64,000 nt of DNA from Mobula hypostoma (lineage: Eukaryota), in NCBI RefSeq assembly GCF_963921235.1, contig NC_086097.1, positions 23,810,001 through 23,874,000 of the forward strand, in the 5' to 3' direction. The position numbers were made by a program, and so were the translations under genes. Below the pieces are notes generated by a model, which was not told the origin of the DNA, did not search any database, and saw nothing but the letters and a program-made list of their open reading frames with translations. Shown here piece after piece: positions 22,990 through 63,945 of the stretch (within the stretch, counting starts at the first letter, position 1; each line of letters starts with the position of its first letter).

Positions 22990-23730
22990 GAATCAGAGTT
23001 AGAATCAGGTTTATCGTCACGGAGATATGTTGTGAAATGTGTTGCTTAGCGGCAGCAGTACAGTGCAAGTCATGTTACAAAAAGAAATATATAGAAGTAT
23101 AAATAAACGGAAAATTCTGGGGAAACTCAGGAGGTCAGGCATCATCTGTGGGGAGGAATGAACAGCTTACGTTTCAGACTGAGACTCTTCATCAGGACTG
23201 GAAAGGAATGTCGAAACGTCGACTGTTCATTCCTCTCCATAGATGCTGCCTGACCTGCTGAGTCCCTCCAGCATTTTGAGTTTGTTCCCTTGGATTTCCA
23301 GAATCTGCTGAGTCCCTTGTGTTTAAAAAATTAATGAGTGGTACAAAAAGAGAGCAAAACTGAGGTGGTGTTCCTGGGTTTACTGTCCACTTAGAAATTT
23401 GATGGCAGAGGGGAAGAAGTTGTTCCTAAAGTGTTGAGTGTGTGTCTTCAGGCTCATACACCCCTTCCTTGATTGTGGTAATGAGAGGAAAGTATGTCCT
23501 TCTGAGGGTCCTTAAGGATGGATGCTGCCTCCTTCATGCATCGCCTTTGGAAGATGTCTTTGATGTTGGGAAGGCTAGTGGCTGTGATGGAACTGAGTTT
23601 ACAACACTCTGCAGATTCTTCCAATCCTGTGCAGGGGCCCCTGCATACCAGCTGGTGATGCAACCAGTTAGAATGCTCTCCATGGAACACCTGAAGATGT
23701 AGGAGTTTGCTGGAGCCTTTGGTGATGTAC
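22990..23730 (-). mobile_element. Rex1-like LINE 3' fragment carrying a nested PLE fold-back
   Basis: YIFRCSMESILTGCITSWYAG..AQDWKNLQSVV and RRCMKEAASILKDP. Confidence 0.85.
23115..23325. mobile_element. PLE-terminus fold-back element with hammerhead motif at 23163-23200 (-)
   Basis: actcaggaggtcaggcatcatctg and atagatgctgcctgacctgctgagt are inverted; minus-strand CAGUC CUGAUGA A GAGU CUCA GUCU GAA ACGU A. Confidence 0.8.
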
Positions 23731-24189
23731 CAGGGATTCTGATTAAAATTCTATCATCTTTCACTGAGGAAGTTTGGTGTCTTTACCAGATCTGGCCGGG
23801 GCCACGAATGTGGTTGAGTGCCTCCTCTGCAGGTCAACTGTCATGAATCAGTCAAGCTAAGACATATTCGTGGGTATGAAAGGTATAGAGGGAAATGGCC
23901 AAATGCAGGCATATGGAACTACACCTTGATCAGCATAGATGAGTGGGGACAAAAGGCTTGTTTCTGTGCTTTATAACTCGATCAGGGTGGAGGGACAGGA
24001 GCTTGAAAATGCACACTCAGCATTTTATTAACAGCTTCTTCCCCTCTACCACCTGATTTCAAAACAGTCAGCAGCACTACCCCACTATTTTGCACCAGTT
24101 ACTTGTGTCTTTTATATTTTTATTGTAATTTTAGCTTTTTTGAGCATTGCACTCTATTGCTGCAACAAAACAACAAATACCACAACATA

Positions 24190-24756
24190 CACTCTGAAGC
24201 CACTTTATTAAGTACCTCTTGTACCTAATAAAGTAGCCTCTGAGTTTATTTTCATGCTCTTCTGCTGTTGTAGCCCATCCACTTCAAAGTTTGACATGCT
24301 GAGCATTCAGAGATGCTCTTCTGCACACCACTGATGTAACACGTAGTTATTTGAGTTACTGTCACCTTCCTGTCACTTTGAACCAGTCTGGCTATTCTTC
24401 CCTGGCCTCTCTCATTAACAAGGTGATTTTTCCCACAGAACTACTGGTCAATGGATGTTTCTTGTTTTTCACACTATTCTCTGTAAACTCTGGAGACTAT
24501 TGTGCATGAAACCCAGGGAGATCAGCACTTCTGAGATACTCAAACCACATAATCTGACACCAACAATCATTCCACAGTCAAATTCACTTAGGTCACATTT
24601 CTTCCACACTTTAACGTTTGGCCTAAACAGCAACTGAACTTCTTGACTGTGTTTGCATGCTTTTATGCATTGAGTTTTTGCCACATGATTGGTTGATGAA
24701 ATATTTGCGTTAACGAGCAGCTATACAGGTGTACCTAATAAAGTGGCCATTGGGTA
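24190..24756 (-). mobile_element. Non-autonomous Tc1-like transposon with three TIR copies and TA TSD
   Basis: TIRs gccactttatta(g)gtac / gtacctaataaagtggcc; transposase N-terminus KKCDLSEFDCGMIVG....LSISE...LGF; TA at 24188-89 and 24757-58 inside a Rex tail. Confidence 0.88.
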
Positions 24757-25429
24757 TATGTCAGAGATAATTCTGATTTTGGCTCTATAAGCAAAATACT
24801 AACTTAGAGAATTATCCCCAATAAAAGGTGTGTGATCATGTTGCTGCCATTAAACAGATTACCCAATTATCGATAAGTAGGATCTTGCTTTTCAAGGTAG
24901 CAGGTTTCCCATTCCTGGCATTACCTAGTACTTAGATCATTTGTTGTACCGCTCTCAATTCTTTTGCACCTTTTGTTTTATAATGAGAGGATGGACTGAT
25001 GTTCACTGTGATATGTCAAAATACTTTGTTAAAATAGAGGTTTGGCAGAGCCTTACTATTTCATGCATTTCTTAGGGCAAAGAAGGCATTAGTTGACCTA
25101 TCTATGCTAGTTCTAATGCATTCTCCATGATTCCCTTCCATCAGATTCCTTTGCAACCTCATCTCTCTGACATCCCCATCAACTCCACCCGATGCTTCAT
25201 CACTCTTCTATAATAGGGTCAACTTGTCAGAGTCAGTGAACCTACCACTGTACGAATAGTGCGCAAGAGTAATCTTTTCACTGTATAGAATATAGAACAT
25301 CACAGCACAGTCATGGGATGTGTGTAAACCAGAGCAGCAAAGGAGAACCAATGAGATCACAAGGAGAAAACAAGCAGCAACTGGGGTCAGCAATAGTGTT
25401 CGCATGGCTACCGGTATATTATTGTAACA

Positions 25430-25735
25430 TGTACAAGATGCTAATACCAGGCGTATACTTGGAAGGTGATTGGAGGAAAGTATAGCGGAGGATATCAAAG
25501 GTAAGTTTTTTTAACACAGGGAACGCTGGGTGCGTGAAAGGCACTGCTAGGGATGATTGTAGAGTTAGATACATCTGGTACATTTAAGAGAATCTAAGAA
25601 ATTCACATAGATGACAGAAGAATGGAGGGCTATGTGGGAGGGAAGGATTAGATAGATCTTAGATTAAATGAAAGTGTTGGCACAGCACCGTGGGCTGAAG
25701 GGCTGGTACTGTGCAGTGATGTTCTACATTCTATA
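25430..25735 (+). mobile_element. CR1-like LINE 3' end
   Basis: Sense counterpart of 4540-4800 (ggctatgtgggagggaagg...ggcacagcaccgtgggctgaagggc...gttctacattcta). Confidence 0.8.
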
Positions 25736-25784
25736 CAGTGAAATGGTTTGTCTTGCGCACTGTTCATACAGATCAAATGATGAT

Positions 25785-26395
25785 CAACTAGCTGGAGCGT
25801 TCAATGAGATCTTTAACCTCTCATTGGCTGTCTAAGGGAGCCACCTGCTTCCATCGGGCTTCAATCATACGGGTGCCAAAGAAGGACATGTTGACCTGCT
25901 TCAATAACTATCAGCCAGTAGAACTTGCATCCACAGAGATGAAGTGCTTTGAGAGGCTGGTGCTGAACCATATCAACCCCTGCCTGTGAAGTGACTTAGA
26001 TCCACTCTAGTCTGCCAACTGGCACAACAGGTCCACAGCAGTTATTACCTCGCAACCATCAGGCTCTTGAACCAGAGAAGATAACTTCACTCAGTTTCAC
26101 TCACCACATCACCAAACTGTTCCACAACCTGTGAATTCACTTTCAAGGGCTCTTCATCGCATGTTGTCAATATTTATTGCTTACTTACTTATCTATATAT
26201 CTATTTTTATTTGTTTGTTTGTTTGTTTGTTTATTTCACACTGGTTGTCTACCTTGTTGGTGCATCTTTCATTGGTTCTATTATGGTGACTGGATTTATT
26301 GAGTATACCCACAAGAAAATGAATATATACTCTACGTGTACAGTATGTGGTGACATATACCTACTTTGGTAAAAAACTTACTTTGAGCTTTGAAA
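25785..26395 (+). mobile_element. Rex1-like LINE, internally deleted (RT start joined to 3' UTR)
   Basis: TCFHRASIIRVPKK..LTCFNNYQPVELAS..MKCFERLVL, then a jump to the 3' tail near 26040. Confidence 0.8.
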
Positions 26396-26867
26396 TCATT
26401 ACAGACAGCATTGAGGTACTGCAAGGTAAAATAATAACAATGCACTGTAGAATAAAGTTTAAAAGCTGCAAAGTGCAGTACAGTAAGCAACAAAGTGCTA
26501 GGTCACAATGAGGTAGATTGTGAAGTCAAAGGTCTATCTTATTGTACAAGACGTCCATTCATCAATGCTGTGTGTCATCAACGTGACATTGAACACAGAT
26601 CACTGGAAACGTGTGACCGCAGCACTACCTCACCATAGCCAGTTCCACCTTCAAAAGACGGAGACTATAAATTGGCTCTCAACTGCTGGAAAAACAATTT
26701 TGAGACTTCACTGCTATAATGACCAACTTGAGCGTGTCATTTTCCACTAAGTCGTAAATATATTCTTTCAAGTGGCAGCAGTCTGCTCTGTATTCACTAA
26801 TGGCTGGCTCTGTGAGCGAGGAGTAGGGAAAGGCATGTAAATCTTTCATCCCCTGGAAGCAGAATAT

Positions 26868-27250
26868 AAGACCATAAGACAATAAGACCTAGGAGCAGAA
26901 TTAATCTATTCAGCCCATTGATTCTGCTCTGCAATCGACAATCATGCCTGATTCATTATCCCTTTCAACACCCATCGCCTATTCTCCTGCCTTCTTCCCG
27001 TAACGCTTTACAATCTTACTAATCAACAACATATCAACCTTTGCTTTAAATACGTCCAAGGACGGACTCCACAGTCATCTGTGGCAATGAATTCCACAGA
27101 TTCACCATCATCAGGCTAAAGAAGTTCCACCTCTTCTCAGTACTAAAGGGATGTCCTTCTATTCTGAGGCTGTGCAGCCTAATCCTGACTCTTCCGTAAT
27201 TGGAAACATCCTCTCCATGTCCATTCTATATAGGCCTAATCAGTAGGTTC
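26868..27250 (-). mobile_element. CR1-like LINE 3' end
   Basis: (ataagacc)n tail and ggcaatgaattccacagattcacc (antisense of VNLWNSLP). Confidence 0.8.
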
Positions 27251-27264
27251 AAATAAAACCGCCC

Positions 27265-28032
27265 TTTGTGGACTTCAGGAAGGGTAAGACGAAGGAACAC
27301 ATACCAATCCTCATAGAGGGATCAGAAGTGGAGAGAGTGAGCAGCTTCAAGTTCCTGGGTGTCAAACTCTCTGAGGATCTAACCTGGTCCCAACACATTG
27401 ATGTAGTCATAAAGAAGGCAAGACAGCGGTTATACTTTATTTGGAGTTTGAAGAGATTTGGTATGTCAACAAATACACACAAAAACTTCCATAGATGTAC
27501 CGTGGAGAGCATTCTGACAGGCTGCATCACTGTCTGGTGTGGAGGGGCTACTGCACAGGACCGAAAGAAGCTGCAGAAGGTTGTAAATGTAGTCATCTCC
27601 ATCTTGGGCACTAACCTATAAAGTACCCAGGACATCTTTAGGGAGCGGTGTCTCAGAAAGGCAGCGTCCATTATTAAAGACCTCCAGCACCCAGGGCATG
27701 CCCTTTTCTCACTGTTACCATCAGGTAGGAGGTACAGAAGCCTGAAGGTACACACTCAGCGATTCAGGAACAGCTTCTTCCCCTCTGCCGTCTGATTCCT
27801 GAATGAACTTTGAAGCTTTGGACACTACTTTTTTTAATATACAGTATTTCTGTTTTTGCACATTTTTAAAGTCTATTCAATATACATAATTGATTACTTG
27901 CTTATTTATTATTATGTTTTATTTATTATTTTTTTCCCTCTCTGCTAGATTATGTATTGCATTGAACTGCTGCTGCTAAGTTAACAAATTTCACATCACA
28001 TGCCGGTGATAATAAACCTGATTCTGATTCTA
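27265..28032 (+). mobile_element. Rex1/Babar-like LINE 3' part
   Basis: ORF 27268..27621 DFRK...VERVSSFKFLGV.LSEDLTWSQH...KKARQRLYF...ESILTGCITVW; aataaacctgattctgattct tail. Confidence 0.92.
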
Positions 28033-28094
28033 CTTCTGAACACTGGCATAGGTAGATAAGAGTCGTAAAGAAAGCTTTGTCACATAGGCCTTCA

Positions 28095-29010
28095 TTCTCC
28101 ACAGTTTCCATCATCTTCAATGGGATTCTATCCCAAAACACATATTTATCTCCTCCCAATCTCGGCTTTCTACAAGGATCGTTTCTTCCATGATTCCCTT
28201 ATCCATTCATCTCTCCTCAGTAATCTCCCTTCTGGCGTGTTTCCCTGCAAGCAACAGGAATTCTACATCTTCCGATTCACCTCCATTCAGGGTTCCTGAC
28301 GATCCTTCCGGGTGAGCTACGCTTCATCTGTGAATCTCTTTGGGTTGTCTACTGTATACGGCGCTCCCGATGCAGCTGCCTCTATATTGATGAAAAAGGA
28401 TGTAATTTGAAGGGCTGCTTTACTAAATACCTCAACTCCATCCACAATAAGTGAAATTCCTCAGTGATCAACCATTTTAATTCCTATCTTCATTCCCATT
28501 TCAAAATGTCGGTCTATGGCCACCTCTCTGCCATGATACGGCTACTCGTAGGGTGCAGGAACAACAACCCATATAACATCTAGGTAGCTTCTAACCTGAA
28601 AGCATCAACATCAATTTCCCTTTCTGGTAATTTTTTCCCTCCCCCTTCTCTCTTTTTCTCATCCCCACTCTGGTCTTTTACCTCCACTCTTCACCTGCCC
28701 ATCACTTCCCCCCATGTGCCCCTTTCTTCAATGGTCCACTCTGCTTTCTGATCAGATTCCTTCTTCTCCAGCTCTTTACCTTTTTTTACTTATAACCTCG
28801 CGACTTCTTACTTCAAGACCCTCCCCCTCGCACTTGGTTTCACCTATCACCTTTCCCCCTACCCCCCACCTTTTTATTCTGGCATCTCCACCCCCCCCAC
28901 CCCTTCCTTTCCTGTCCTGACAAAAGGTCTTGGCCCACAAAGTTGATTGTTTATTCATTTCCATAAATGTTGCCAGACCTGCTGAGTTCCTCTAGCATTT
29001 TCTGTGTATA
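28095..29010 (+). mobile_element. Older PLE fragment: GIY-YIG region, 3' terminus and decayed hammerhead
   Basis: Colinear with 12725-13275 and 14120-14470; gtcctgacaaaaggtcttggccc at about 28914. Confidence 0.8.
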
Positions 29011-29164
29011 TCAGTAATGGTGTTTCCCATCCTATAAGCCTTTGTCTTACTGATACCATATCAGTATATGATATTGTCTATTGTACATGGTGCTCCCGAT
29101 GCAGCTGCCTCTACATTGATGAGAAAGGATGTAAACTGAGGGGTCAAAGAGAATGTAGGACGGT

Positions 29165-29880
29165 TAAGAGAGATTCTTGACAATGCTAAGTGCACTACGT
29201 ATGCAGCACTCTTGATTAAGTGAAGGGTGGAAGAGAGACCCCAATGATTTTCTCAGCAATTCTTTGTCAGGTCTTACAGTCATATGCCTTACAATCATCA
29301 TACCAAAGTGTTGATCAGTACACTTCCAATGGTGCTCCTGTAAACATTGGTTAGAATGGGGGGGGGGAGACGAGGGAGGTGGGGAGGAAGCCTTGTTCAC
29401 CTCCATCTCCTTAGGAAGTGGAGATGCTGCTGTGCTTTCCTGACTGTAGAGGTAGTGTTGATGGGTCAGGTGAGATTGTCTATTACGTGCCCTCCCAAAA
29501 ACCTAGTGCTCCTAACTCTCTTCCATGATGACGTCATTTATTTACAGTGAAGAGTGGCAAACCTGTACTTTCCGAAAGTCTCCAATCCTCTCTTTGGTCT
29601 TGTAGACATTGAGACTCAAACTATCGTGTATGCGCCATTCTACAAGCCACTCTACCTCCTCTCTCTATGCCATCTTGTTCTCATTGTCAGCGAGGTCAAG
29701 CACTGTCATGTCTTCCGCGAACTTAATGATTCAGTTGGGGATGGATCTAACAGTGCAGTCAAGTGTCAGCAGTGTGAACAGCGGTAGGCTGAGCATGCAG
29801 CCCTGGTGGGCGCCTGTGCTTAGCATGATGGAGCTAGAGATGTTGCTGCCAACACAAACTCAACTGTGGTCTTTCAATTA
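29165..29880 (-). mobile_element. Rex1-like LINE RT/3' fragment, decayed
   Basis: Antisense of ISSSIMLSTGAHQGCMLS.LLFTLLT.DC....KFAEDMTVLDL. Confidence 0.8.
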
Positions 29881-29919
29881 ACCTCTGATTTCCAATCTGA
29901 TGCACAGCAGTAGAATTAT

Positions 29920-30090
29920 TTTCAATTTCCTGTCCAATATTTATTTCTCAGCCAACCCCACCAGAAGAGATCTTCTGGTCATTATTGCCTTGAAGTTTGT
30001 GGGAGCATGCTTTGTGTAAGTTGCTGTTACATTACAACAGGGACGACAAATCAAGGTGTTTATCCAGCAGCTGAGAAGTGATTTCTATCC
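29920..30090 (+). mobile_element. Ancient DeuSINE (SacSINE1-like) remnant
   Basis: ccaatatttat..ctca.ccaac...tctggtcattatt....tg..gtttgtgggagc.tgct...tacattacaacag resembles the Deu domain; recognised from memory only. Confidence 0.55.
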
Positions 30091-30179
30091 TGTGGCTTTC
30101 AAAACTGGATTTAGGAAAGGGGAAAATATGTTCTGTACCACAGAATCTTATAGAAGCATCTGCTGAATCTCTTGTTATG

Positions 30180-30805: not shown

Positions 30806-30979
30806 AAGAGCAGGCCATTTGCTCCATCATGTTTGTGCTACCACTTTGAAAAAAGCATCCAGATAGACCTTTGCAGTCTGCTGTTTCTGCATTGCCCTGA
30901 AAACATTTGTCCCTTCTGACGTTCATTCAATTCTCTTTTCTATGATTTGAAGCCTTCTCACATTTGGGCAGTATCCTGA

Positions 30980-33390: not shown

Positions 33391-33434
33391 GAAAGATTAG
33401 TCATTTAGGTCCAAGAAACAAAATCTCTTCATAG

Positions 33435-35415: not shown

Positions 35416-35949
35416 CCACCTGAGCTGTTAGGGTCGTCATTGTGAGGTGTTGCTCGCAGGAGACCTAAGTACTCTAAATGTTGTTTGACAGAATAAATGT
35501 CATTATGTCCAAGTCTTCTCTGTCAATGTGGCAAAATAACCAATCTGGAACTTCCTTCAATCACACTTTGAGTTTGAAGACACAGTGCCCCCATCTTTGC
35601 TGCAGATGTCTTGACATTGGGTTCCAATGTTAGATATCTTTCTGCAAGTATTGGATGAGGGATCTAGTATTTTCTTGTCAATTTTCAAAGTATATTTCTT
35701 GCTTGTATTAATAAGAATAGAGGTTGTTTCAGTAAATATCTTCTCAACATGACTTATCTTTTCTTAACATTCACTTCAAAAACTGAGTTTGTTCTCCATC
35801 TCAAACTTGCTTTTCACTTCTCCAAAAAATGGTGATGAAAACCGGGATTTTTTTTGTCCATCCATGAGATGCTGACAATATTTCACACGTATTCCCCATC
35901 TCCAATGCCCACAGAGAAGGTGGTGGCAAGCTGCCTTATTGAACAGGTG

Positions 35950-36175
35950 ACAAACAAGAGAAAACCTGCAGATGCTGGAAATCCAAGTAACACACACAAA
36001 AATATGGAGGAACTCAGCAGGCCTGGCAGCATCTGTGGAAAAGTGCAAACTGTTGATGTTTCAGGCCGAGACCCTTCATCCTGACATAGGGCCTGGCCTG
36101 AAACGATGGTTATTTACTGTTTTTCACAGATGCTGCCTGGCCTCCTGATTTCCTCTACCATTTTGTGTGTGTTTA
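35950..36175. mobile_element. PLE-terminus fold-back element, axis inside the hammerhead core
   Basis: acacacacaaaa..tggaggaactcagcaggcc.ggcagcatctgtg is inverted as cacagatgctgcctggcc.cctga.ttcctc.a.cattttgtgtgtgt; centre cccttcatc|ctgacataggg at about 36080. Confidence 0.85.
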
Positions 36176-36664
36176 TTGAACAGGTATGGTCCGTGTGATC
36201 AAAGTCCATTGCACCGTGCTGTTTGGTAGGAAGTTTCCAGGTTTAGACATAATATTGAAGGAATGGCAATAAATTTTCAGCCCAAGATGGTGTCTGTTTT
36301 AGAGGAGAGCTCATTGTCCACATCCTTCCAGGTAGCGGAAATGCAAGTTGGGAGGTTCTGTCAAAGTAGTCTTCCCAGGTAACTCTAGAGCACATTGTAC
36401 TATTTGTGTGTTGGTAATGGAGGGAGTGAATGTAAAGAATGGATAATAGTGGGCTCTAATTTATAATTTAAATTTTTATTATATTTACTATCGATTTGTA
36501 CTCCAGGGAGCGCGAAGCGCAGAATCAAATATCTCTGAGATGATTGCACGCTCTAGTATCAATTGTTTGGCGACAATAAAGTAATAGTAATAATCTGGGA
36601 GTAAAATTATACCAAGCTTCTTGAATGACATTGAGTTTGTACTCACTTATTTGTGCGTAGAGTA

Positions 36665-37724: not shown

Positions 37725-38215
37725 CATGGTAGCATAGAAGTTAACATAAGGGTCTACAGTGCCAGTTGTAAGATCAGGGTTTAATTCCCTCCAGTGTCTG
37801 TAGGGAGTTTGTACACTTGCCCCATGACTGTGTGGGTTTCATCTGGGTGCTCTAGTTTCCACCCACACTTCAAAGACATTCAGGTTATGGTAGACTCGCT
37901 ATGTTTGTCACCAGAAGCACGCTGACACTTGTGGGCTACCCCTAGCATATCTTTGGACCAACACTTACAAAATGCTGGGGGATCTCAGCAGGTCAGTCGG
38001 CCCCTGTGGAGTGGAATGGACAGGCGACATTTTGGGCTAGACCCAGTTCTAATGGTTCTTCCATTGCGAATGTTATTCTGAATTTCCAGCAGCTGTAGAA
38101 TCTCTTGTGATTGCCTCTTTGGAATGTGTTAATCATTGATGCAACCATCACATTTCACTGTATGTCTTGATGTTTCAATCTACATGTGGCAAATGAAGCT
38201 GATATTTAAACTTTG
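37725..38215 (+). mobile_element. V-SINE-like element interrupted by a decayed PLE fold-back (37960-38110)
   Basis: V-domain at 37795-37880; tail resumes near 38115. Confidence 0.65.
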
Positions 38216-39185: not shown

Positions 39186-40359
39186 CAACATATTTATCAA
39201 CTGTAGTTGGTAACTAAATTAGGATTTTTTAATGAAGTTATTCATGTGCAAACTGTTTGCACAAGTGTGTGTGTGCGTGTGTGTGTGTCCATGTATACGC
39301 GTGAGTGTGTTTGCAGATGTGTACATATTTGCAATAGTGGAACAAACTTGTTCTTAACTCTGAGTGTATGTCTAAGAAGAAGGTTTATTATGGCCACATG
39401 TAGCAATATACAATGAACAGCTGGAATTGCATTCAGTTCATGCAGATCAACTCATTGCTCAGAGCACTGAGGTGGTATCAGGTAAAACATTAATAGGACG
39501 TTGGATAAAGTGCAACAGGTACAGAGAGAGTGCAGCACAGGTAAACAGTAAGGTGCAGATTGTGAGGTCAAGAGTCCTGTATGCTGTTCATACAGATCAA
39601 ATCATTACACAGTACATTGAGATAGTGCAAGGTAGAACAATAGCAGAATGCAGAATAAAGTATTATGGATACAGGAAAAGTGCAATGCAGGTAGACATTA
39701 TGATGCAAGGTCATAACAAGGGAGAATGTGAGGTCAAGTATCCATCATATGATATTAGGAAACATTCAAGAGTCTGTTAACAGCGGGATAGAAGGTGTCC
39801 TTAAGCCTGGTGGTACGTGCTTTCAGGCTTTTGTATTGTCTGCCCAATGGAAGAAGTGACAGGGAGAATGTCCAATGCAGAATGTCCAGTGCAGATTGCC
39901 ATGGGAAAGAGAAAGCCATAATTAGAAGGAAATGGCAGAATAAGTTAAAAAAAAGGAAAGAATGAGAATCAATAGGCAATGGATGAGAGATACTGGGATT
40001 TTTCTCAGAGGAGAGAATGTTATTTTATGCTTAGAATAGTGTTCAAAACATGGAGAAACTATTTTCAATGTTAGTGGGTTGGGAACTGAAGGATCAAGGT
40101 TAAGGACCTTCATCATCAGGGATATGACCTCTTTTCATTACTACTGTCAGGGACACACTCAACATTTTAGGAACAGCTCCTTCCCCTCTGCCATCAGATT
40201 CCCGAATGGTCCATCAATCCATGAACATTACCTCACATTTTGCAACACACACAAAATGCTGAAGGAGTTCAGCAGGTCAGGTAGCATCTATGGAAAAGTG
40301 TAAACAGTTGACATTTTGGGTTCTGCAGGGTCCTGATAGAGGGGCTCAGCCTGAAATCG

Positions 40360-40724
40360 CTGGTGCCAGACAGGGTGGTTGATTATTTCAGAAGCTGCTG
40401 ATCTCCTTGGATTTTCATGCACAACAGTCCAGAGTTTACAGAAAAACAAAAAAAAAACATCCAGTGAGCAAAAGTTCTGCGGGCAAAAATGCTTTGTTAG
40501 TGAGGCAGTTCAGAGGAGAATGGCCAGATTGGTTCAAACTGACTGGAAAGAGAAAGTAACTCAGATAACCACACAATACAACAGACGTGTGCAGAAGAGC
40601 ATCTCTGAACACACAATATGTTGAACCTTGAAATGGATGGGCTAGAGAAGCCGAAGACCACAAGCGTGCACTTAGTGGCCACATTATTAGGTTCAGGAGG
40701 TAACTAATAAAGTAGCCACTAAGC
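40360..40724 (+). mobile_element. Tc1-like derivative, second copy, ending in a double-TIR hairpin
   Basis: ORF 40379..40624 ISEAADLLGFS.TT...QRRMARLVQ.D.K..VTQITTQYN..VQKSISE.T; hairpin at 40669-40724. Confidence 0.88.
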
Positions 40725-40761
40725 ATATATTTCTATTGTAATTTATATTATATTTTATCTA

Positions 40762-42859: not shown

Positions 42860-44480
42860 TCCACGCTCACCCCATCTTCCCCAAAGAGATCCTGCCACCA
42901 AAACACACTTTTACCTCTCCCCTACATCTGCTGTCTATGGGGATTGCTCCCACCGCGATTACCTTGTCTATTCATCCCTCCCCACTAATCTCTTTCCTGG
43001 CAAGCGGCCAAAGTGCTATACTTGCCCATTCACCTCCTCCCTCTCCTCCGTTCAAGACCCCAAAGAGTTCTTTCAGGTGAGGAAACACTTTACCTCTGAA
43101 TCTGCTGGGGTCGTCTAATGTATCCGGTAGTCTGCATACGTCCTCTACCTTGATCAGAACCAACTTAAATTGGGGGACCGCTTCGTCGATCAACTCTGCT
43201 CTATCCGCCAAAAGCAGAACTTCCTTGTGGCCAGACATTTTAATTCAGACTCCCATTCCCATTCCAACATGCCAGTCCGTGGTCCCCTCTCATACCAGGA
43301 GGAGGCCACCCTCAGGATGGAGGAGCAACACCTTACAATACATTCTGTCTGAGTAGCCCCCAACCTGATGGCATGAATATCAGTTTCTCCTGATACAAAA
43401 AATATCTCCCCCCCACTTCTTTTATTCCCCACTCTAACATCTTATCTCTTCTCACCTGCCTATCACCCCCTCTTGGTGTCCCTCCTCCTCCTCTCCTATC
43501 AGATTCCTTCCTCTCCAGCCCTTTACATTTCCCACCCTTTTCCACCCACAAACAAGGGAAAATCTGCAGATGCTGGAAATCCAAGCAACAGCCACAAAAT
43601 GCTGGAGGAATTCAGCAGGCCAGGCAGCATCTATGGAAAAGAGTACAGTCGGCATTTTGGCCTGAGACCCTTCATCGGGACTGGAGAAGAAAATGAGGAG
43701 TCAGAGTAAGAAAGATGGGAGGGAAGGTGAAAGTGGGAGGGGAGAGGTGTGAAGTAAAGAGTTGGGAAGTTGATTGGTGAAAAAGATACAGGGCTGGAGA
43801 AGGGGGAATCTGATAGTAGAGGACAGAAGAAGGCATGGAAGAAAGAAAAGAGAGAGGACCACCAGGTGGAGGTGATGGGCAGGTAAGGAGATAAGGTGAA
43901 AGAGGAAAATACGAATGGAGAAAGGTGAAAGTGAGGGGCATTATCAGAAGTTTGAGAAATTGATGTTTATGCCATCAGGTTGGAAGCCACCTAGAGAGAA
44001 TATAAGGTGTTGTTCCTCCAACCTGAGTATGGCCTCATCGCGACAGTAGAGGAGGCCATGACCTGAGATGTTGGAATGGGAATGGGAAGTGGAATTAAAA
44101 TGGGTGGCTATTGGGAGATCCTACTTTTTCCGGTGGATGGAGCATAGATGCTTGGTGAAGCCGTCTCCCAATATGTGTTGGTCAAGGGAGCCACGTAGGT
44201 AGCGATCCCTGTGGAAAGCAGAAAGTTGGGGGGAGGTGAGGGAAAGATGTGCTTAGTGGTGGGATCCCACCAGAGACTGCAAAATCCTTTCCTACCCACC
44301 TGGCTTCACCTATCACCTTCTAGCTATCCTCCTTCCTCTCTCTCCATCTTCTTATTCTGGTGTTTTCCTCCTTTTCTTCCCAGTCCTGAAGAAGTGTCCT
44401 GGCCCAAAATGTTGACAGTTTATTCATTTCCATAGATGCTGCCTGACCTGCTGAGTTCCTCCAGCATTTTGTGTGTATTG
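42860..44480. mobile_element. Cluster of three PLE fragments in alternating orientation (+,-,+)
   Basis: GDRFVDQLCSIRQK....VARHFNS.SHSHS.M.V.G (43170..43352); minus copy 43550-44270; plus 3' end 44280-44480; decayed hammerheads at 43646-43683 (-) and 44381-44418 (+). Confidence 0.85.
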
Positions 44481-44669
44481 CAAGAAATTCTGTTATTTGG
44501 TATAAAAAATATAAGCTCTGTACAATTGAGATTTATTTTGAAGGTACATTGAGAAGCAGTACATTTTCTTTATAGTGTGATGTGTGGAGTCTGTCATTGG
44601 ATACACTATAAAATTTAATTAGTTTTATTTATTATATCCTTATTGAAATCTAGCAAATAATGAAAGTCT

Positions 44670-56119: not shown

Positions 56120-56860
56120 AAGGCGGCACTTATGGAGGGAAATTGACAGACCCTTCATCAGGACTGGAAACGAAAGAAGCAGAAGCCAGAATTGGACGTT
56201 GAGGGTGGAATCAGGGGAAGCACAAGGTGGCAGGTAAGAGATGAGAGGGAGAAGATGGGTGGGGGAGGGGGGAGTGAATTAAGGAGCTGGGAGGTTGTAG
56301 GTGGAAAAGGTAAAGAACTGAAGCAGAAGGCATCCGATAGGAGAGGACAATGGACTGTGGAGAAAGGGAACAAGGTGATAGGCAGATCATGCAGGGGCGG
56401 GGGGAGAGGGCCACCAGAATGGGTGAAAACACAAAGGTAGGGAGACAGAAAATAGAAGGGAGTGGTTTCTGAAATTTAGAGATATTGATGTTCATGCCAT
56501 TAGGATTTTATAGCATGTTGCACCAGAGAGTCAGCCATTCTTGTCTGGCACGTAGTGTCAGGTTTGGTCTCCTTTTTCAGATTAACCGGGTCACGATATG
56601 AACGTTCCTGACTCAGCCCTTGTTTTTTACGAGGCCGAGTGGCTAGCTCGACGCTCAACCCGGCATGGATGGAAAGCGTGCTCGGGGGGTGACCCGACTT
56701 GGATTCGAACTTGAGAGCCTTCGCTCCAGAGTCCAGCGCTGATGCCGTTGCGCCACCAGCCAGCCATGCCATTAAATTAGAGAATATCTAACCTATTATC
56801 ACTTATTGAGCTTAGTTCCTCCGGCGTTTAGTGTGTGTTGCTCAAGCATCTGAGAATCTC
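56120..56860 (-). mobile_element. PLE 3' fragment interrupted by a SINE
   Basis: acccttcatcaggactgg and the purine-rich terminus, ending gatattgatgttcatgcc as at 11200-11217. Confidence 0.7.
56503..56764 (-). mobile_element. Young tRNA-derived SINE with 10-bp TSD
   Basis: Minus-strand A-box tggcgcaacgg and B-box gttcgaatcc; catgccatta at 56493-56502 and 56765-56774; many CpGs intact. Confidence 0.9.
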
Positions 56861-57714
56861 TTATGGTTATGAAGTCCTGTGCTCCACGCCAACAGAAAGA
56901 TGGCCCACACAATATACCTGTGGAATGTATGCATGTATTTCTCCACCCCATCCCTTGCCACCTCTCAGGACAATAACATTTTATATTGCAGAATTCCATG
57001 CAAACATTCAATAAAAACTTGAATACGTTTGTTCCAGCAACAAAAACAGCAAAACAAACTCCTTTCCTCCCCTCCCTCCCCCGCATATCAGCAAGGATTG
57101 CGCTGGGCAGTTCACCATGCTTCCAGCGCCTACATAGCATGCCCACAACTCGTTAATGTCTTTGGAACATGAGAGAAAACTGGAGCTGCTCGAGGAAACC
57201 CATGTGCTTGGGAGGCAACATACAAACTCCTTATAGACAGTGGCAGGGACTGTACCCCGATCTTACGGCTGGCACTGCAAAGAGTTGCACCAACCACGAT
57301 GCTACTGTGCCAACCCTATTCCTGAAACTCATTGATAGACTTGTTGAGAGAGTCATGAGAAAGAGCATGCACAGCCACTGGGAGGCAGGAAGAGAAAGGA
57401 GATAGTTCAATCAGGGAGAAATGAAAAGAAAGGGTCACATTGATAAGGTGAGATGAAGTGGGGAGTGATGAGGCAGTGGTGCAGCAAGTAGCTGTTCTAC
57501 AGATCCACTGACTCAGGTACAATAGTGACCTTGGGTGCTGTCCGTGTGGAGACTTGACTTTATCTCTGCGGCCATTGTGGGTTTCCTCTAGATGCTCCCA
57601 TTTCCTCCCACATCCCAAAGGCACGCTAGCAGGTAGGCAAGTTGGTTGTTATAAATTGCCTGGTGTAAGTCATTGTAGGGGATGTTAATCGGGGTGTGTC
57701 AGAAGGTGAAGAGC

Positions 57715-59140
57715 ATTCTGACTGGGTTGCATCATCACCTTATCCCAAGGCTCCAAAGCGCAGGATTGGAAAAAGCTGCAGAGAGTTGTAAACTCAAGTC
57801 GGCTCCATCATGGACATGAACCTCCCTACATCGAGGATGTCCCCAAAACAAGCCTTCTTCTCATTATTACCATCAGGGAGGAGATATGGGATCCGTACTT
57901 GTGTGTTGACGAAACCACTGTTGTTGGCTGAATCAAAGCTGGTGACAAATCAGCATATAAGAGGGAGATTGAAAATCTGGCTGAGTGGTGCCACAACAAC
58001 AGCATCTTACTCAATGTCAGATCAAGGAGATGATTACTGACTTCAGGAGGAGGTGCATGAACCAGTTCATTATCGGGGGATCAGAAGTGGAGAGGGTCAG
58101 CGACTTTAAATTCCTCAATGTTATCATTTCAGAGGGCCTGTCCTGGGTCCAGCAAGCAAGTGCAATTACAAAGAAATCATGGTGGCGCCTGTACTTCCTT
58201 AAAAATTTGTGAAGATTCAGCGTGACACCTAAAACGTGGACAAATTTCTATAGATGTGTGATGGAGACAATAGTAAGTTGCAGGATCACAGCCTGGTATA
58301 GAAACACCAATGCCCTTGAACAGAAAACCCTACAAAGAGTATGAAGTACAAAGTTAAATTCTGTTATCAAAGTACATATATGTCACGACTTACAGCCCAG
58401 AGATTCATTTTCTTCTGGGCATACTCAATAAATCCATAGAATAGTAACTATAACAGAATCAATGAACAACTGCCAAACTAGAGTGTTCAACCAGTGTGCA
58501 AAACACACCAAACTGTGCAAATACAAAAAGCAGAAGCAATAAATATCAAGAACATGAGATGAAGAGGCCTTGAATATGAGTCTATTGGTTGTGGGAACAT
58601 TAGTGGATACGGCCCAGTCCATCACAGATAAAGCCCCCCTCAACACTGGGCACATCTACATGGAGCATTGTAGCAGGCAAGTTGCATCCAGCAACAGGCA
58701 CCTCCATCAGCCATGTCATTGATTGTTCTTGCTGCTGCCATCAGGAAGAAGGTACAGGAGACTCAGGGCTCACCACCAGGATCAGGGAGCATCATTGCCC
58801 CTCAACCATCAGGCTCTTGAAACAGAGGTGATAACGTCGCTCAACTCCACTTGCCTCATCACTGAACTGTTCCCCACAACCTATGGACTCACTTTCAAGG
58901 ACTCTTCTTCTCATGTTCCTAGTACTTACTGCTTATCTATTTATTATTATTAATTCTTTCTTTTTGCGTTTGCACAGTTCACTGTCTTTTGCACACTGGT
59001 TGTCTGCCCTGTTGGGTGAGGTATTCATTGATTCTATTGTGGTTGTTGGATTTACCGAGTATGCCTGCAAGAAAATGAATCTCAGAGTTGTATATAGAGA
59101 TATATGTGCTTTGACAATAAATTTACTTATAACTTTGAAC
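57715..59140 (+). mobile_element. Rex1-like LINE mosaic with an inverted Rex tail nested at about 58345-58600
   Basis: KEMITDFRR...GSEVERVSDFKFL.VIISE.LSW...RLYFL; LLLPSGRRYRRL; text resumes agtggatacggccc after the insert. Confidence 0.82.
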
Positions 59141-59289
59141 TGAGAACACACGCACAATATTTTAGGAACAGCTTCTTCCTCTCCACCATCAGATTTCCAA
59201 ACCCATGAATACTACCTCACGATATTGCTCTCATTTTGCACTACCTATTTATTTTTTCATATATTTGTATTTCATATATAATATATATG

Positions 59290-60287
59290 TTTGTCATGTA
59301 TATTAATATATATTAATGATCTGGATGATGGGATGGTAAATTGGATTAGTAAGTATGCAGATGATACTCAGAAAGGTGGTGTTGTGGATGATGAAGTAGG
59401 TTTTCAAAGCTTGCAGAGAGATTTAGGCCAGTTAGAAGAGTGGGCTGAAAGATAGCAGATGGAGTTTAATGCTGAAAAATGTGATGTGCTACATTTTGGT
59501 AGGACTAATCAAAATAGGACATACATGGTAAATGGTAGGGCATTGAAGAATGCAGTAGAACAGAGGGATCTAGGAATAATGGTGCATAATTCCCTGAAGG
59601 TGGAATCTCATGCGGATAGGGTGGTGAAGAAAGCTTTTGGTATGCTGGGCTTTATTAATCAGAGCATTGAGTATAGGAGTTGGGATGTAATGTTGAAATT
59701 GTATAAGGCATTGGTAAGGCCAAATTTGGAGTATTGTGTACAGTTCTGGTCACTGAATTATAGGAAAGATGTCAATAAAATTGAGAGAGTACAGAGGAGA
59801 TTTACTAAAATGTTGCCTGGGTTTCATCTCCTAAGTTACAGAGAAAGGTTGAACAAGTTAGGTCTTTATTCTTTGGAGCATAGAAGATTGAGGGGGGACT
59901 TGATAGAGGTGTTTAAAATTATGAGGGGGATTGATAGAGTTGACATGGATAGGCTTTTTCCATTGAGAGTGGGGGAGATTCAAACAAGAGAATATGAGTT
60001 GAGAGTTAAAGGGCAAAAGTTTAGGGGTAACATGCGGGGGAATTTCTTTACTTAGAGAGTGGTAGCTGTGTGGAATGAGCTTCCAGTAGAAGTGGTTGAG
60101 GCAGGTTCGATGTTGTCATTTAAAGTTAAATTGGACAGCGATATGGACAGGAAAGGAATGGAGGGTTATGGGCTGAGTGCAGGTCAGTGGGACTAGGTGA
60201 GGGTAAGAGTTCGGCACGGACTAGAAGGGCCGAGATGGCCTGTTTCCGTGCTGTAATTGTTATATGGTTATATGTTCTATGGTTATA
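59290..60287 (+). mobile_element. CR1/HER1-like LINE, RT C-terminus to 3' end
   Basis: YINDLD...SKYADDT upstream of ORF 59459..60055 (MEFNAEKC.VLHFG...LVRPNLEYCVQFW...RGDLIEVFKIM); (TTATATGG)n tail. Confidence 0.95.
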
Positions 60288-60689
60288 TTTATTTTTAATT
60301 ATAGCAACTTTTTATGCATCTCACAGTGCTGCTGCAAAAAATAACAGATTTCATGACATACATCAGTGATAATAAACATGATTCTGATTCTTATTCTGAA
60401 TAGGTACAGGAAAATGGGAGAATGGGATTGAAGAGACTGTTCTGAGAGCCAACATAAATTCAAAGGGGTGAAAGCGCTCCTACAAAGTCTTGAGAAGATG
60501 AACTAATACTCCCCCTTGTGAGGTCATGCTGCACAGTTTATGTCTGTGCTCTGAAAACTTGTTAATTTGTAATCAGCTCTGCAGATAGGTCCCAAAAGTG
60601 CCCTAAAACATAACTTCTTCTTGATCTTCAATCGTGCTGATTACGGAACAGAAAGCATTACAGCACGGTACAGGCCCTTTGGCCCATAA

Positions 60690-61410
60690 TAGATAGATAT
60701 AGATAGATAGATAGACATACTTTATTGATCCTGAGGGAATTTGTGTTTCGTTACAGCATTACCAACCAAGAACAGAGTACAAACATAGCAATACAAAACC
60801 ACAAACAATCAAATAATAATATGTAAACTATGCCAGAGGGTAATAAGTCCAGGACCAGCCCATTGGCCCAGGGTGTCCGACCCTCCAAGGGAAGAGCTGC
60901 AAAGTTGATGGCCACAGGCAGGAATGACTTCCTATGATACTCAGTGCTGCATCCTGGTGGAATAGTCATTGTCATAGTCATACTTTATTGATCCCAGGGG
61001 AAATTGGTTTTCATTACAGTTGCACCATAAATATTAAATAGTAATAGAACCATAAATAGTTAAATTGTAATATGTAAATTATGCCAGTAAATTACAAAAT
61101 AAATCCAGGACCAGCCTATTGACTCAGGGTGTCTGACCCTCCAAGGGAGGAGTTGTAAAGTTTGATGGCCACAGGCAGGAATGACTTCCTATGACGCTCT
61201 GCGTTGCATCGCGGTGGAATGAGTCTCTGGCTGAATGTACTCCTGTGCCCACCCAGTACATTATGTAGTGGATGGGAGACATTGTCCAAGATGGCATGCA
61301 ACTTAGAAAGCATCCTCTTTTCAGACACCACCGTCAGAGAGTCCAGTTCCATCCCCACAACATCACTGGCCTTATGAATGAGTCTCTGGCTGAATTTACT
61401 CCTGTGCCCA
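60690..61410 (-). mobile_element. Two tandem Rex1-like 3' ends with (TATC)n and (ATGACT)n tails
   Basis: ORF 61116..61466 is nearly identical to 13726..13968; second copy at 60690-60963. Confidence 0.9.
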
Positions 61411-61476
61411 ACGGTGTAAATGATGTTACACGCCGACGTAGGGTTGGCAGAGGGAGGGATGTACACAACAACCCTT

Positions 61477-62175
61477 GTGATTGTACTTACCTCTCACTCA
61501 GTGATTGTACTTACCCTTCGCACAGTGTGATTGTACCTACCCCTCAATCAGATTATACCTACCCCTTACTCAGTGTGATTGTATCTACCCCTCGCTCAGT
61601 GTGATTGTACCTACCCCTCACTCAGTGTGATTGTACTTACCCCTCACTCAGTGATTGTACTTACCCCTCGCTCAGAGTGATTGTACCTACCCCTCACTCA
61701 GAGTGATTGTACCTACCCCTCGCTCAGAGTGATTGTACTTACCCCTCCCTCAGGGTGATTGTACCTACCTCTCACTCAGTGTGATTGTACCTACCCTTGC
61801 TCAGAGTGATTGTACTTACCTCTCACTCACAGTGATTGTACTTACCACTCACTTACAGTGATTGTACCTACCGCTCGCTCAGAGTGATTGTACCTACCCC
61901 TTGCTCAGAGTGCTCGTTCTTACCTCTCATTCACAGTGATTGTACTTACCCCTCACTCAGAATGATCGTACCTACCCCTCACTCAGAGTGATTGTACCTA
62001 CCCCTCGCTCAGAGTGATTGTACTTACCCCTCGCTCAGAGTGATTGTACCTACCCCTCGCTCAGGGTGATTGTACCTACCCCTCGCTCAGAGTGATTGTA
62101 CCTACCTCTCGCTCAGTGTGATTGTACCTACCTCTCGCTCAGAGTGGTTGTACTTACCTCTCACTCAGAGTGATT
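61477..62175. repeat. 26-bp minisatellite GTGATTGTACCTACCCCTCGCTCAGA, about 27 units
   Basis: gtgattg recurs at 61988, 62014 and 62040; a few units are 24 bp. Confidence 0.97.
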
Positions 62176-63013
62176 ATTTCTGGTTATGCGAAATGTCTTG
62201 GTTCACTTAGTCATTTGTACTGCTTTTCAGTGATTGAGCTGATGGTAGCACAATCCATGATATGTTTTCCTTGTGTATTATGCGTAAAAGAAATAGGTAC
62301 TGGAGCCTGAAGTGGAATTTTCATAAAGCTCTTGAATAACCATCAGAATATCAGAAGAGCGAATCCAAAGACCACTTATATGTTAATGCATTTAAGATCC
62401 TCTAAGACTGTAAGGTAACGTTGAATCAGCATTAATTAAATATTTATTGCATTCTTCGAGTAGCTTATGGCAGAGATCACTGATGTGTAGACAGAGCCCC
62501 ATTCAAGTGAAGGACTGCCTTCCTGTGGAAAAATAACTACAGGCAAGTGTTTCAATTGTTTCACTTTAAAATAGCATTAGAAGCATTGAAAGAGCAGTTA
62601 ATGATATTGTTAATTAAATTTAAGTTATTAAAAATAATTATTCTGAATTATTTATCAATTTGAATAATTTTTGATTGCCTCTGAATATCAGAGACAATTA
62701 AAAACAGTTTAAAAACAGTTCAAAGTTCTTTTACAGCTGGCAAGCTCAGAATTGTGGGATTGGGGCCTCAGCGTGAACAGCAGGCGTTCTCCTACCCACA
62801 TAGTTCCTTCTTGCAGGTGGCTGTCAGGTGCAGCTCTGTTGTCTGTGTTCAGCGACTGGTCACTGAGAATTGGTTTATCATTGTCATCCACATAAAGGTA
62901 CAGTGAATATCTTAACACAATAGATTCTGCTGATGCTAGAAATCGAGAGTAATATTCACACAAAATTCTGGAGGAACTCAGCAGGTCAGCTGGAGTCTAT
63001 GGAGAGGAATAAA

Positions 63014-63051
63014 CAGTCGACGTTTCTGGCTGAAACTCTTCATCAGGACTG
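63014..63051 (-). ncRNA. Minimal hammerhead motif, core intact, helix II decayed
   Basis: CAGUC CUGAUGA A GAGU UUCA GCCA GAA ACGU C GACUG, within PLE terminus 62915-63051. Confidence 0.65.
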
Positions 63052-63187
63052 GATATGGTCTGATCAGCAGCTGAACCTCTTGACCATGTTGGTATGCTTT
63101 TATGCATTGAGTTGCCTGCACATGATTGGCTGATTGCATTAATGAGCCAGTGTAGAGGTGTACCTAACAAAGTGGCCACTGAGTGTA
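63052..63187 (-). mobile_element. Tc1-like derivative, 5' end only
   Basis: Matches 24615-24758; TIR gtacctaacaaagtggccactgagtg then TA. Confidence 0.82.
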
Positions 63188-63779
63188 TATTGATTATAAC
63201 AATGTCTTTATTCTGTGAAGTGCTTGACTCTTCACCTAGATGTGCTGAAAGAAATCTGCATTGAGAATGAGCTATGCTTTGCTTCATATATTTTCGCTGC
63301 AGGATCTGTGCATCTTGCTGAGCGAGCATGTCGGAAATCTTAGGTAAATATGTTGATGGCCTGTACTGGAGTCAACCTTTTGCTCCTATCGCTTATATTT
63401 TTCTGTCAGGAAATTGAAACTTGCATGAATATTTATGCTGAGTATCACAGGCTGCTCAACTGTTGGAATTTATATGCTAAACAGAATCATTATAATATTA
63501 TTTTTTTCCAACAGGAGGTTTGTTGTTAACACAAATCAGAGCAAAACATGTTTTTATTTTGATTCTTGTGGGCTCTTTCCATTGTCGTGTGATTGAGCAG
63601 ATGTTTCCGATACTTCATGGGGCTTAGCCTAAATTGTCCTCATTGGTCTGTGGTGTTGCAATGTTCCAAATTAAGGTTCAAATATACACCAATCAGAAGA
63701 AGAGTGGCTGGTAATTTACCCTATAGGTGTGAAATACTGGGGCACATCTCCTTTTGGCCAGAAATGGATTACCACCCAG

Positions 63780-63945
63780 AAACATGAGAAAGTCCTGAAG
63801 ATGCTGGAAATCTAAAGCAACACACAAAAAAATGCTGGAGGCACTAAGCAGGTCAGGCAGCATCTACGGAAATGAATAAACAGTCGATATTTCTGGCTGA
63901 GACCCTTCAGTCCCGAAGGATTTCCATGGATTACCACCTGACCAT
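63780..63945. mobile_element. PLE terminus with short inverted remnant
   Basis: aaaatgctggagg.act.agcaggtcaggcagcatc...cagtcgatatttctggctgagacccttc then cagtcccgaagg. Confidence 0.7.

What the first reader, a model, noticed from the sequence alone, without database searches (positions are those of the whole stretch)
23115..63945. PLE fold-back mini-elements with breakpoints at the ribozyme motif
Seen: roughly 150-230-bp palindromes made of two PLE termini at 23115-23325 and 35950-36175, and more decayed at 37960-38110, 40243-40358 and 63780-63945. The axis lies in or next to the hammerhead (36080: ...cccttcatc|ctgaca...). Solo fragments also begin at the motif (6540, 17640, 18322, 19771, 63051). 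Inference: the ribozyme fold, or its CAGTC/GACTG helix, is a hotspot for RT stalling or strand switching that yields MITE-like hairpins from a retroelement; these may be a non-autonomous, retrozyme-like family. Most breakpoints lie 5' of the predicted cleavage site, so simple self-cleavage does not explain them.
Basis: partly seen in the sequence, partly recalled or inferred. Interest (0 to 1): 0.72.

Follow-up and report, generated by a model that had tools for sequence, protein, structure and literature searches.

The report
Penelope hairpins turn at RNA start
These small DNA hairpins are separate insertions of a Penelope-type jumping gene, not one mini-transposon family, and their turning points pile up at the front edge of a hammerhead ribozyme motif, likely because two DNA copies, started from the two cut ends of the target, ran off the start of the element's RNA there.

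Summary
The hairpins are real. They are head-to-head insertions of a Neptune-type Penelope-like element: one tailed arm, one short arm, and a 10-16 bp target-site duplication (TSD). Two of the five cited loci are mostly one arm plus a stub, and one cited solo (6540) probably reads through.

The breakpoint hotspot holds after controlling alignability. In 159 young insertions picked by their 3' tail, arms end five times more often per base in the hammerhead than on either side. A second family (100 insertions) also shows it.

A ribozyme stall fits poorly. Arms pass the motif at background rate when their partner arm goes further upstream, the cut site is not the peak, and the hotspot shifts 15-30 nt upstream in the second family although the ribozyme is nearly the same.

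Junctions are almost all unique, so there is no amplified family. Two hairpin pairs do share a junction but have separate TSDs, one pair with the tail on the opposite arm, so re-copying happens rarely.

Best model: priming from both nicks, run-off at the RNA 5' end, end-joining. No RNA evidence was obtained. The layout is published, and this scan already reported the hotspot in this and other genomes.

The parts
23109..23324 (.). Fold-back: short arm on minus (23109 to about 23210, just past helix I), long tailed arm on plus (23212-23324, from about -104); no TSD found
35936..36185 (.). Fold-back: tailed arm on minus (about 35950-36085), short arm on plus (about 36080-36172), exact 13-bp TSD at 35936-35948 and 36173-36185
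37957..38111 (.). Decayed fold-back: short arm on minus to about -114, long arm on plus from about -58; weak 8-bp flank match only
40242..40356 (.). Short arm on minus (to about -107) plus a 27-nt inverted stub of the hammerhead (40330-40356); not a full palindrome
63764..63938 (.). Tailed arm on minus (to about -119) plus an inverted stub of about 10-16 nt, exact 13-bp TSD at 63764-63776 and 63926-63938
19759..19881 (+). Solo short arm starting at the A of helix I (-127), 11-bp TSD
62914..63051 (-). Solo tailed arm starting at helix I (-128); no TSD found
17641..17755 (+). Solo tailed arm starting at about -107; no TSD found
18323..18404 (+). Strongly decayed solo arm starting near -123 (weak hit)
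6461..6634 (-). Decayed arm that probably continues into the upstream pyrimidine tract, so probably not a break at the motif
10860..14510 (.). Large fold-back of the young family Y1: short arm on minus 10860-11981, tailed arm on plus 12071-13280 and 14150-14510 (interrupted by other DNA at 13281-14149), 14-bp TSD; axis far from the ribozyme
12071..13276 (+). PLE ORF 3' part: RT YIDD motif, cysteine-rich linker, GIY-YIG endonuclease (Pfam E=9e-4, below the curated cut-off)
14381..14418 (+). Minimal type I hammerhead motif: helix I CAGTC/GACTG, core, 4-bp helix II, GAAAC, predicted cut after 14413
   Evidence: sequence; fold; definition in PMC4209133
28913..29008 (+). Older-family arm that reads through the motif into the tract
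43552..43683 (-). Older-family tailed arm that reads through the motif into the tract
44381..44481 (+). Older-family short arm that reads through the motif into the tract

Best explanation
Each hairpin is one insertion of a Neptune-type Penelope-like element with a tailed arm, a short arm and a target-site duplication, likely made when both nicked target strands primed reverse transcription and both copies ran off an RNA 5' end lying at or just before the hammerhead. Shown: the layout, the TSD, two fixed outer ends (+2 and about -33), a coupled hotspot of inner ends, and mostly unique junctions. Inferred: (1) the endonuclease makes a staggered cut of about 13-14 nt; (2) the two 3' ends prime at the two internal start sites in the RNA leader; (3) when the leader used is the one at the RNA's 5' end, only 95-170 nt can be copied, giving minis, and when the template continues upstream the arms pass the ribozyme freely; (4) the two cDNA ends are trimmed and joined by short microhomology or filler; (5) the 5' end is probably a transcription start, with initiator-like motifs at the edge in both families. 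Finished hairpins are occasionally copied again with freshly chosen outer ends.
For: Y1 family, 159 insertions anchored only by the tail: 77 simple and 11 complex fold-backs; TSD in 68 of 77 and 10 of 10 testable, against 5 of 300 mismatched flank pairs. End rate in -91..-128 is 11.2 per kb against 2.3 and 2.3 for long arms, and 15.7 against 3.0 and 2.9 for short arms. No end among 83 long arms at risk in -130..-139. The peak follows template position, not arm length. Arms are coupled: 27/6/1/23 in Y1 (p=2e-9) and 26/1/0/9 in Y2 (p=1e-7, cut chosen after seeing the data). With the partner beyond -129 the rate is 3.5 per kb; otherwise 33 per kb. Genome-wide double-mismatch counts are 3328, 5341, 4544 and 1044 for starts at -125, -126, -127 and -128; a rough correction gives about 12,000, 8,600 and 1,100 for -126, -127 and -128. 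All 30 loci viewed for -126 lack the tract. In Y2 the hotspot extends upstream of the ribozyme: 19.6 against 2.9 per kb at -130..-143, p=2e-5, while the ribozyme differs at only 4 of 38 printed bases. Arms of one insertion share non-CpG variants five times more than shuffled pairs (46 of 6706 sites; 0 of 500 shuffles). L494 and L495 share a junction with a 3-nt filler, have different flanks and TSDs, and carry the tail on opposite arms. In vitro, a lizard PLE cuts and extends both strands and starts at two sites bounding the tail, without needing ribozyme cleavage (PMC11167929). A TATA box and initiator are described in a rotifer pLTR (PMC3846280).
Against: No RNA 5'-end data: no run on record as RNA, and only contigs could be laid. 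Y1 inner ends are spread over 30 nt rather than peaked at one base. The two full-length copies seen carry upstream partial units reaching -740 and -411, beyond the proposed start, so a strand transfer or a second upstream start is needed. The same bases look equally like a splice acceptor, and in Y2 like a branch site. An extra G at the edge (cap mark) was significant at one of three positions only. Near-equal inner ends are enriched in Y2 (6 of 18, p=0.013) but not in Y1 (3 of 22). Coupling and shared variants would also follow from one cDNA folding back on itself.
Confidence: 0.55

Rival explanations
1. One cDNA (or an antisense RNA) folds back and primes on itself, and the second arm is a copy of the first; the tail asymmetry comes from endonuclease resolution. 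The hotspot would still mark an RNA end.
For: Proposed for rotifer PLEs (PMC3846280, passages). It explains coupling and shared variants and the near-perfect palindromes in Y2. Junction overlaps exceed the exact-match expectation in all regions.
Against: The short arm reaches further than the tailed arm in 49 of 77 Y1 and 24 of 45 Y2 pairs, by up to about 1.2 kb, so the tailed arm cannot always be the parent. 37 of 77 Y1 and 11 of 41 Y2 junctions have filler rather than overlap. Thousands of arms start at the edge, many as solos abutting their TSD. Both outer ends match RT start sites seen in vitro.
Confidence: 0.17
2. The hammerhead fold, or protein bound to it, stalls the reverse transcriptase or promotes strand switching through the CAGTC/GACTG helix.
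For: In Y1 the excess covers the core and helix II (-100..-129). A junction at the CAG/CTG inverted repeat recurs (216 exact copies), as does one at GAAACG/CGTTTC (3 of 77). The lizard ribozyme is protein-assisted.
Against: No excess when the partner arm shows a longer template. The peak is at the 5' strand of helix I, where the helix is already opened, not at its 3' foot. The Y2 hotspot lies partly outside the ribozyme. Overlap is not higher inside the motif. The isolated motif folds no better than shuffles (z 0.58 to -1.11).
Confidence: 0.12
3. The edge is made by splicing: the tract is an intron end, and a lariat intermediate or a processed RNA blocks or ends the template near the acceptor or branch point.
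For: A pyrimidine tract ends in CAG at helix I. In D. virilis Penelope the intron end maps to the 5' end of helix I (PMC4209133). Y2 ends cluster at -141/-142, at a branch-like A (3 and 2 ends).
Against: 0 genomic matches to the one spliced junction tested. No shared first exon upstream of 30 copies starting at -126. Y1 has no excess at its branch-like site (2.4-2.9 per kb). Starts include the A and G of the acceptor itself.
Confidence: 0.1
4. The hairpins are an amplified non-autonomous family (MITE- or retrozyme-like) descended from a few masters.
For: About 96,000 mini fold-backs are extrapolated (11 in 400 kb; 95% range 48,000-171,000). Two junctions were re-used with new TSDs.
Against: 74 of 77 and 43 of 45 junctions are distinct. 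Eight junctions counted genome-wide gave 1-3 matches each. Arm lengths run continuously from 60 bp to kilobases. Only 2 same-strand neighbours under 200 bp apart among 108 termini.
Confidence: 0.04
5. The clustering is an artefact of losing alignment in the low-complexity tract.
For: True for at least one cited solo (6540), and possible for old copies.
Against: Young arms align through the tract; 83 long arms pass it. The excess holds for TSD-bounded insertions alone (14.2 against 2.7 per kb).
Confidence: 0.02

Closest known systems
Inverted-pLTR insertions of endonuclease-bearing PLEs (Adineta vaga Pen2a, PMC3846280; general scheme in PMC8557442)
   Same: Head-to-head inverted 5'-truncated copy, 30-40 bp tail on one end, TSD, partial tandem (full-length L321).
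   Different: Here most fold-backs are reduced to the two leaders (49 of 77 and 30 of 41 under 300 bp), and inner ends are coupled and clustered. The papers propose self-priming or endonuclease resolution rather than two primed ends.
Poseidon element of the green anole in vitro (PMC11167929)
   Same: Both strands cut and extended, two internal RT starts bounding the tail, hammerhead just upstream, cleavage not required.
   Different: Different clade (this one has a cysteine-rich linker, Neptune/Nematis type). The parts read do not link two-strand extension to inverted insertions or report a 5' breakpoint hotspot.
Minimal type I hammerheads in pLTRs (PMC4209133)
   Same: Short helix I, extra base before helix II, palindromic stub in place of helix III. 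Opposite-strand pairs 100-700 bp apart were noted in Schistosoma.
   Different: That paper predicts self-cleavage and circular templates; here few ends fall at the cut.
Non-LTR retrozymes (PMC7229834; bioRxiv 10.64898/2026.07.22.740005)
   Same: Short, non-coding, hammerhead-bearing, derived from PLE pLTRs.
   Different: Retrozymes are head-to-tail tandem units expressed as circles; these are single head-to-head pairs with TSDs.
L1 twin priming
   Same: Both target ends prime cDNA and give an inverted segment.
   Different: In L1 the second primer starts at variable internal sites and the pieces cover different parts of the RNA; here both primers start at fixed neighbouring sites and copy the same part.

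Membership tests
EN+ Penelope-like element | RT plus C-terminal GIY-YIG endonuclease in one ORF | tested here: met
   Window ORF 12071-13276 has YIDD and GIY-YIG (Pfam E=9e-4, under the curated cut-off); 3.5-kb unit in L321
EN+ Penelope-like element | pLTR from partial tandem, inverted 5' copy, 30-40 bp tail, TSD | tested here: met
Neptune clade | [quoted passage not shown] | tested here: met
   CKRKCYTS in the window ORF and CKRKCYTC in L321; criterion from PMC8557442, shared with Nematis
Neptune clade | RT phylogeny | not tested
   no tree built
Minimal type I hammerhead | Core boxes with helices I and II and no helix III | tested here: met
   sequence; helix I closes in 2 of 4 window copies folded; no Rfam hit
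Minimal type I hammerhead | Self-cleavage | not testable with these tools
   needs an in vitro assay
Non-LTR retrozyme | Head-to-tail tandem units, each with a hammerhead | tested here: not met
   2 same-strand neighbours under 200 bp among 108 termini, against 14 head-to-head pairs in the same sequence
Non-LTR retrozyme | Circular monomer RNA | not testable with these tools
   no run on record as RNA
MITE-like amplified family | Many copies with the same internal sequence and junction | tested here: not met
   junctions 74 of 77 and 43 of 45 distinct; 1-3 genome-wide matches for 8 junctions
MITE-like amplified family | Symmetrical terminal inverted repeats and fixed short TSD (definition recalled) | tested here: not met
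   one tailed and one short end; TSD 8-17 bp with mode 14

The most novel reading that the evidence does not exclude
Penelope-like elements prime at the 5' leader of their RNA from both nicks, make retrovirus-like strong-stop cDNAs, and must transfer to the repeated 3' copy to continue. The mini hairpins are the failed transfers, about 100,000 of them. Finished hairpins can be re-copied to nearby sites on the same chromosome with the tail reassigned to either arm, which would make them a new, locally hopping class of second-generation retro-palindromes.
Probability: 0.25. Interest if true: 0.8.

Novelty: new variant of a known kind. Interest (0 to 1): 0.52.

Why it matters
How Penelope-like elements insert, and why they leave inverted repeats with a one-sided tail, is an open question in the papers read. 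A very large set of short, TSD-bounded products gives base-level predictions: two primed ends, an RNA start at helix I that differs between families, and no need for ribozyme cleavage. These can be tested with an existing in vitro system and 5'-end sequencing. The tail-swapped twin pair shows directly that the outer ends are set at each insertion, independently of the junction. For annotation, these hairpins can be mistaken for MITEs or microRNA precursors (weak Rfam miRNA hits).

Tried and rejected
RNA data: no RNA holder was listed. Laying four contig sets guessed to be RNA showed no start sites, and no joint matching the predicted intron among the 15 joints displayed, with 90 more not shown. 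This is not evidence either way.

Cap mark: G was in excess before starts at -126 (45 of the first 100 listed, p=0.001) but not before -127 (36 of 76) or -128 (35 of 100). CpG decay and G-rich partner arms confound this, so it is inconclusive (tallies made by eye).

A hotspot bounded by the cut site (-96..-127) fitted Y1 but not Y2, so it was dropped. Cross-family chimeras at the ribozyme: 0 of 16 and 0 of 22.

The first 30 look-alike loci were picked by likeness to a hairpin and were not used for rates. Loci L071-L160 and L331-L390 were also left out of the rates.

The near-twin L497/L498, 198 Mb apart, may be an independent recurrence. Flanks of the 216 CAG/CTG-junction copies were not seen, so their independence rests on examples.

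Literature: searches listed no paper whose title or abstract start reports a PLE breakpoint hotspot at the hammerhead or twin priming in PLEs. The library lacks most subscription papers. A term search of the PMC11167929 supplements found nothing, and its figure S2 on genomic coverage, which could bear on this, was not seen.
Full report
OBSERVATION. The window holds a Penelope-like element (PLE): an ORF with a reverse-transcriptase motif, a cysteine-rich linker and a GIY-YIG domain, and 20 profile hits to its terminal segment. The genome is 3.48 Gb. A cartilaginous fish is my inference from the repeat content; earlier scan notes call look-alike loci in other genomes shark. Coordinates below are relative to the tail end (0 = window 14509). 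The minimal hammerhead runs from -128 to -91, with the predicted cut at -96/-95. Of the five cited palindromes, three are two-armed (23109, 35953, 37957) and two are one arm plus a stub (40242, 63779). Exact 13-bp TSDs flank 35953 and 63779. Four of five cited solos start in the motif; 6540 probably reads through. At least six arms in the window run through the motif, including both arms of a 3.65-kb fold-back at 10860-14510 with a 14-bp TSD.

SAMPLES. To avoid picking by breakpoint, I anchored on the tail only. Family Y1: 160 loci, taken as the first listed 30 of 78, 100 of 1206 and 30 of 320 matches of three tail patterns. The window's own copy was dropped, leaving 159. Two pairs that share flanks were kept. 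Family Y2: the first 100 listed of 27,277 exact tail matches, all in the first 9.3 Mb of contig 1. A separate 400-kb sample at fixed spacing on contigs 1 and 2 gave 91 termini and 11 mini fold-backs, with 0 hits in reversed sequence. That extrapolates to about 96,000 minis (48,000-171,000).

ANATOMY. In Y1, 77 insertions are simple fold-backs, 11 complex, 51 solo and 20 other. TSDs were found in 68 of 77 and 10 of 10 testable fold-backs, against 5 of 300 mismatched pairs; the modal length is 14. In Y2, 41 of 100 are simple fold-backs, 37 with a TSD; four similar ones with a shorter outer end were added for the pair tests. The partner of a tailed arm ends near -33. In the unanchored sample most pairs also have one long and one short arm, and one has two long arms. 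This is the published PLE layout (PMC8557442 and PMC3846280, passages). The two outer ends correspond to the two RT starts found in vitro for a lizard PLE that cuts and extends both strands (PMC11167929, parts 1-2 of 4).

HOTSPOT. In Y1, long arms end in -91..-128 at 11.2 per kb (50 ends) against 2.3 per kb downstream and upstream (21 each). Short arms end at 15.7 per kb against 3.0 and 2.9. The window was set from the motif beforehand. The excess holds for TSD-bounded copies and more weakly for solos (6.7 against 1.7 and 2.4; p=0.008 and 0.026). No long arm of 83 at risk ends in -130..-139. Matching by arm length instead of template position does not explain the peak. Few ends fall at the cut: two at -95 in Y1 and one in Y2. 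Genome-wide counts of arms that match up to a base and then mismatch twice were 3328, 5341, 4544 and 1044 for -125, -126, -127 and -128. After a rough correction for filters and chance matches, the drop from -127 to -128 is about seven-fold. All 30 loci viewed for -126 lack the upstream tract, and many abut their TSD.

CAUSE. Three results argue against a stall at the fold. First, the arms are coupled, and an arm whose partner goes beyond -129 ends in the motif at 3.5 per kb, not distinguishable from the 2.6 background. Second, the highest rate is at the 5' strand of helix I, which a polymerase reaches after opening the helix (inference). Third, Y2 has nearly the same ribozyme but its hotspot extends 15-30 nt upstream. 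An RNA end explains all three. Y1 has one initiator-like motif at the edge with an AT-rich stretch about 29 nt upstream, and Y2 has three such motifs over 15 nt; the initiator consensus is recalled. A TATA box and initiator are described in a rotifer pLTR, and Drosophila Penelope has an internal TATA-less promoter followed by an intron (PMC2377424, passages). Against this reading: there is no RNA evidence, Y1 ends are spread over 30 nt, the same bases resemble a splice acceptor (PMC4209133, parts 1-2 of 4), and two full-length copies carry upstream partial units reaching -740 and -411. The one spliced junction tested has no genomic match.

JOINING. Overlaps of three or more bases are above the exact-match expectation inside and outside the motif alike. 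The observed overlaps come from alignments that allow mismatches, so only the comparison between regions is fair. Many junctions carry filler instead. Some microhomology junctions recur (216 and 158 matches), a small share of the total. Arms of one insertion share variants, which fits a common template or later conversion.

FAMILY OR NOT. Junctions are 74 distinct of 77 in Y1 and 43 of 45 in Y2. Eight junctions that looked filler-bearing were counted genome-wide. Four were unique. One had two one-mismatch hits with different filler. One had a near match 198 Mb away that may be independent. Two had a twin. L491/L492, 1.9 Mb apart, are 99% identical over 200 bp, share a filler base and a private variant, and have different TSDs and different short-arm ends. 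This junction was chosen because the twin was already in my sample; a third, more distant pattern match did not align. L494/L495, 0.84 Mb apart and chosen blind, share a 3-nt filler and several variants, have different TSDs, and carry the tail on opposite arms. So there is no amplified family, but hairpins can be copied again. The swap is what two-site priming predicts if a hairpin transcript, or a neighbouring genomic hairpin, bridges the two new cDNAs (inference). These are not retrozymes as defined in PMC7229834 (passages) and bioRxiv 10.64898/2026.07.22.740005 (part 1 of 5 and passages), which require tandem units.

NOVELTY. The layout and the ribozyme motif are published. The breakpoint hotspot and its coupling were not found in my eight paper searches, but earlier notes of this scan report them in this genome and others. 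Those notes are unchecked and are not counted as support. I noted the RNA-end idea before reading them. The notes as shown do not mention the conditional-rate test, the family-specific shift of the edge, or the tail-swapped twin. Verdict: a real, quantifiable signature of PLE insertion, a new variant of a known kind, interest 0.52.

Noticed in passing
L494:1386-1682 and L495:1375-1675: Two hairpins 0.84 Mb apart share a junction with a 3-nt filler, have separate TSDs, and carry the tail on opposite arms.
   Followed up: partly
L491:1428-1627 and L492:1398-1597: Twin hairpins 1.9 Mb apart, 99% identical, with separate TSDs and different short-arm ends.
   Followed up: partly
L321 (G000:C1:95196447-95206446): Full-length Y1 copy: inverted 333-bp short arm, 750-bp partial tandem, 3.5-kb unit, ORF broken by stops and frameshifts.
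   Followed up: partly
window 13281-14149: Other DNA, whose reading frame hits Pfam ALKBH8_N, interrupts the PLE right after its stop codon; probably a LINE fragment.
   Followed up: no
window 43380-43900: A tailed arm is followed directly by an inverted piece of its own tract and ORF end (inverted pair 43489-43536 / 43776-43823), a layout unlike the head-to-head type.
   Followed up: no
window 58446-59044: Inverted pairs (85 and 76 nt arms, 277-429 nt apart) that gave no hammerhead-terminus hit.
   Followed up: no
window 24184-24252, 40664-40730, 1650-1716, 25248-25771: Other short palindromes or inverted pairs unrelated to the PLE terminus; 40664-40730 gives a weak miRNA-model hit.
   Followed up: no
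window 6952-7608: Low-complexity array of 6-bp-like units giving open Asp/Leu/Pro-rich frames.
   Followed up: no
window 14406-14425: In family Y1, GAAACG can pair with CGTTTC downstream, an alternative fold that hides the catalytic GAAA box; the same inverted repeat gives a recurrent junction.
   Followed up: partly
L351 and L352; L235 and L236; L225 and L226: Pairs of loci that share flanks, consistent with local segmental duplications on contig 1.
   Followed up: partly
window 16025-17299, 59456-60055, 4601-5050: Fragments of a non-LTR retrotransposon; 16025-16669 hits Pfam RVT_1.
   Followed up: no
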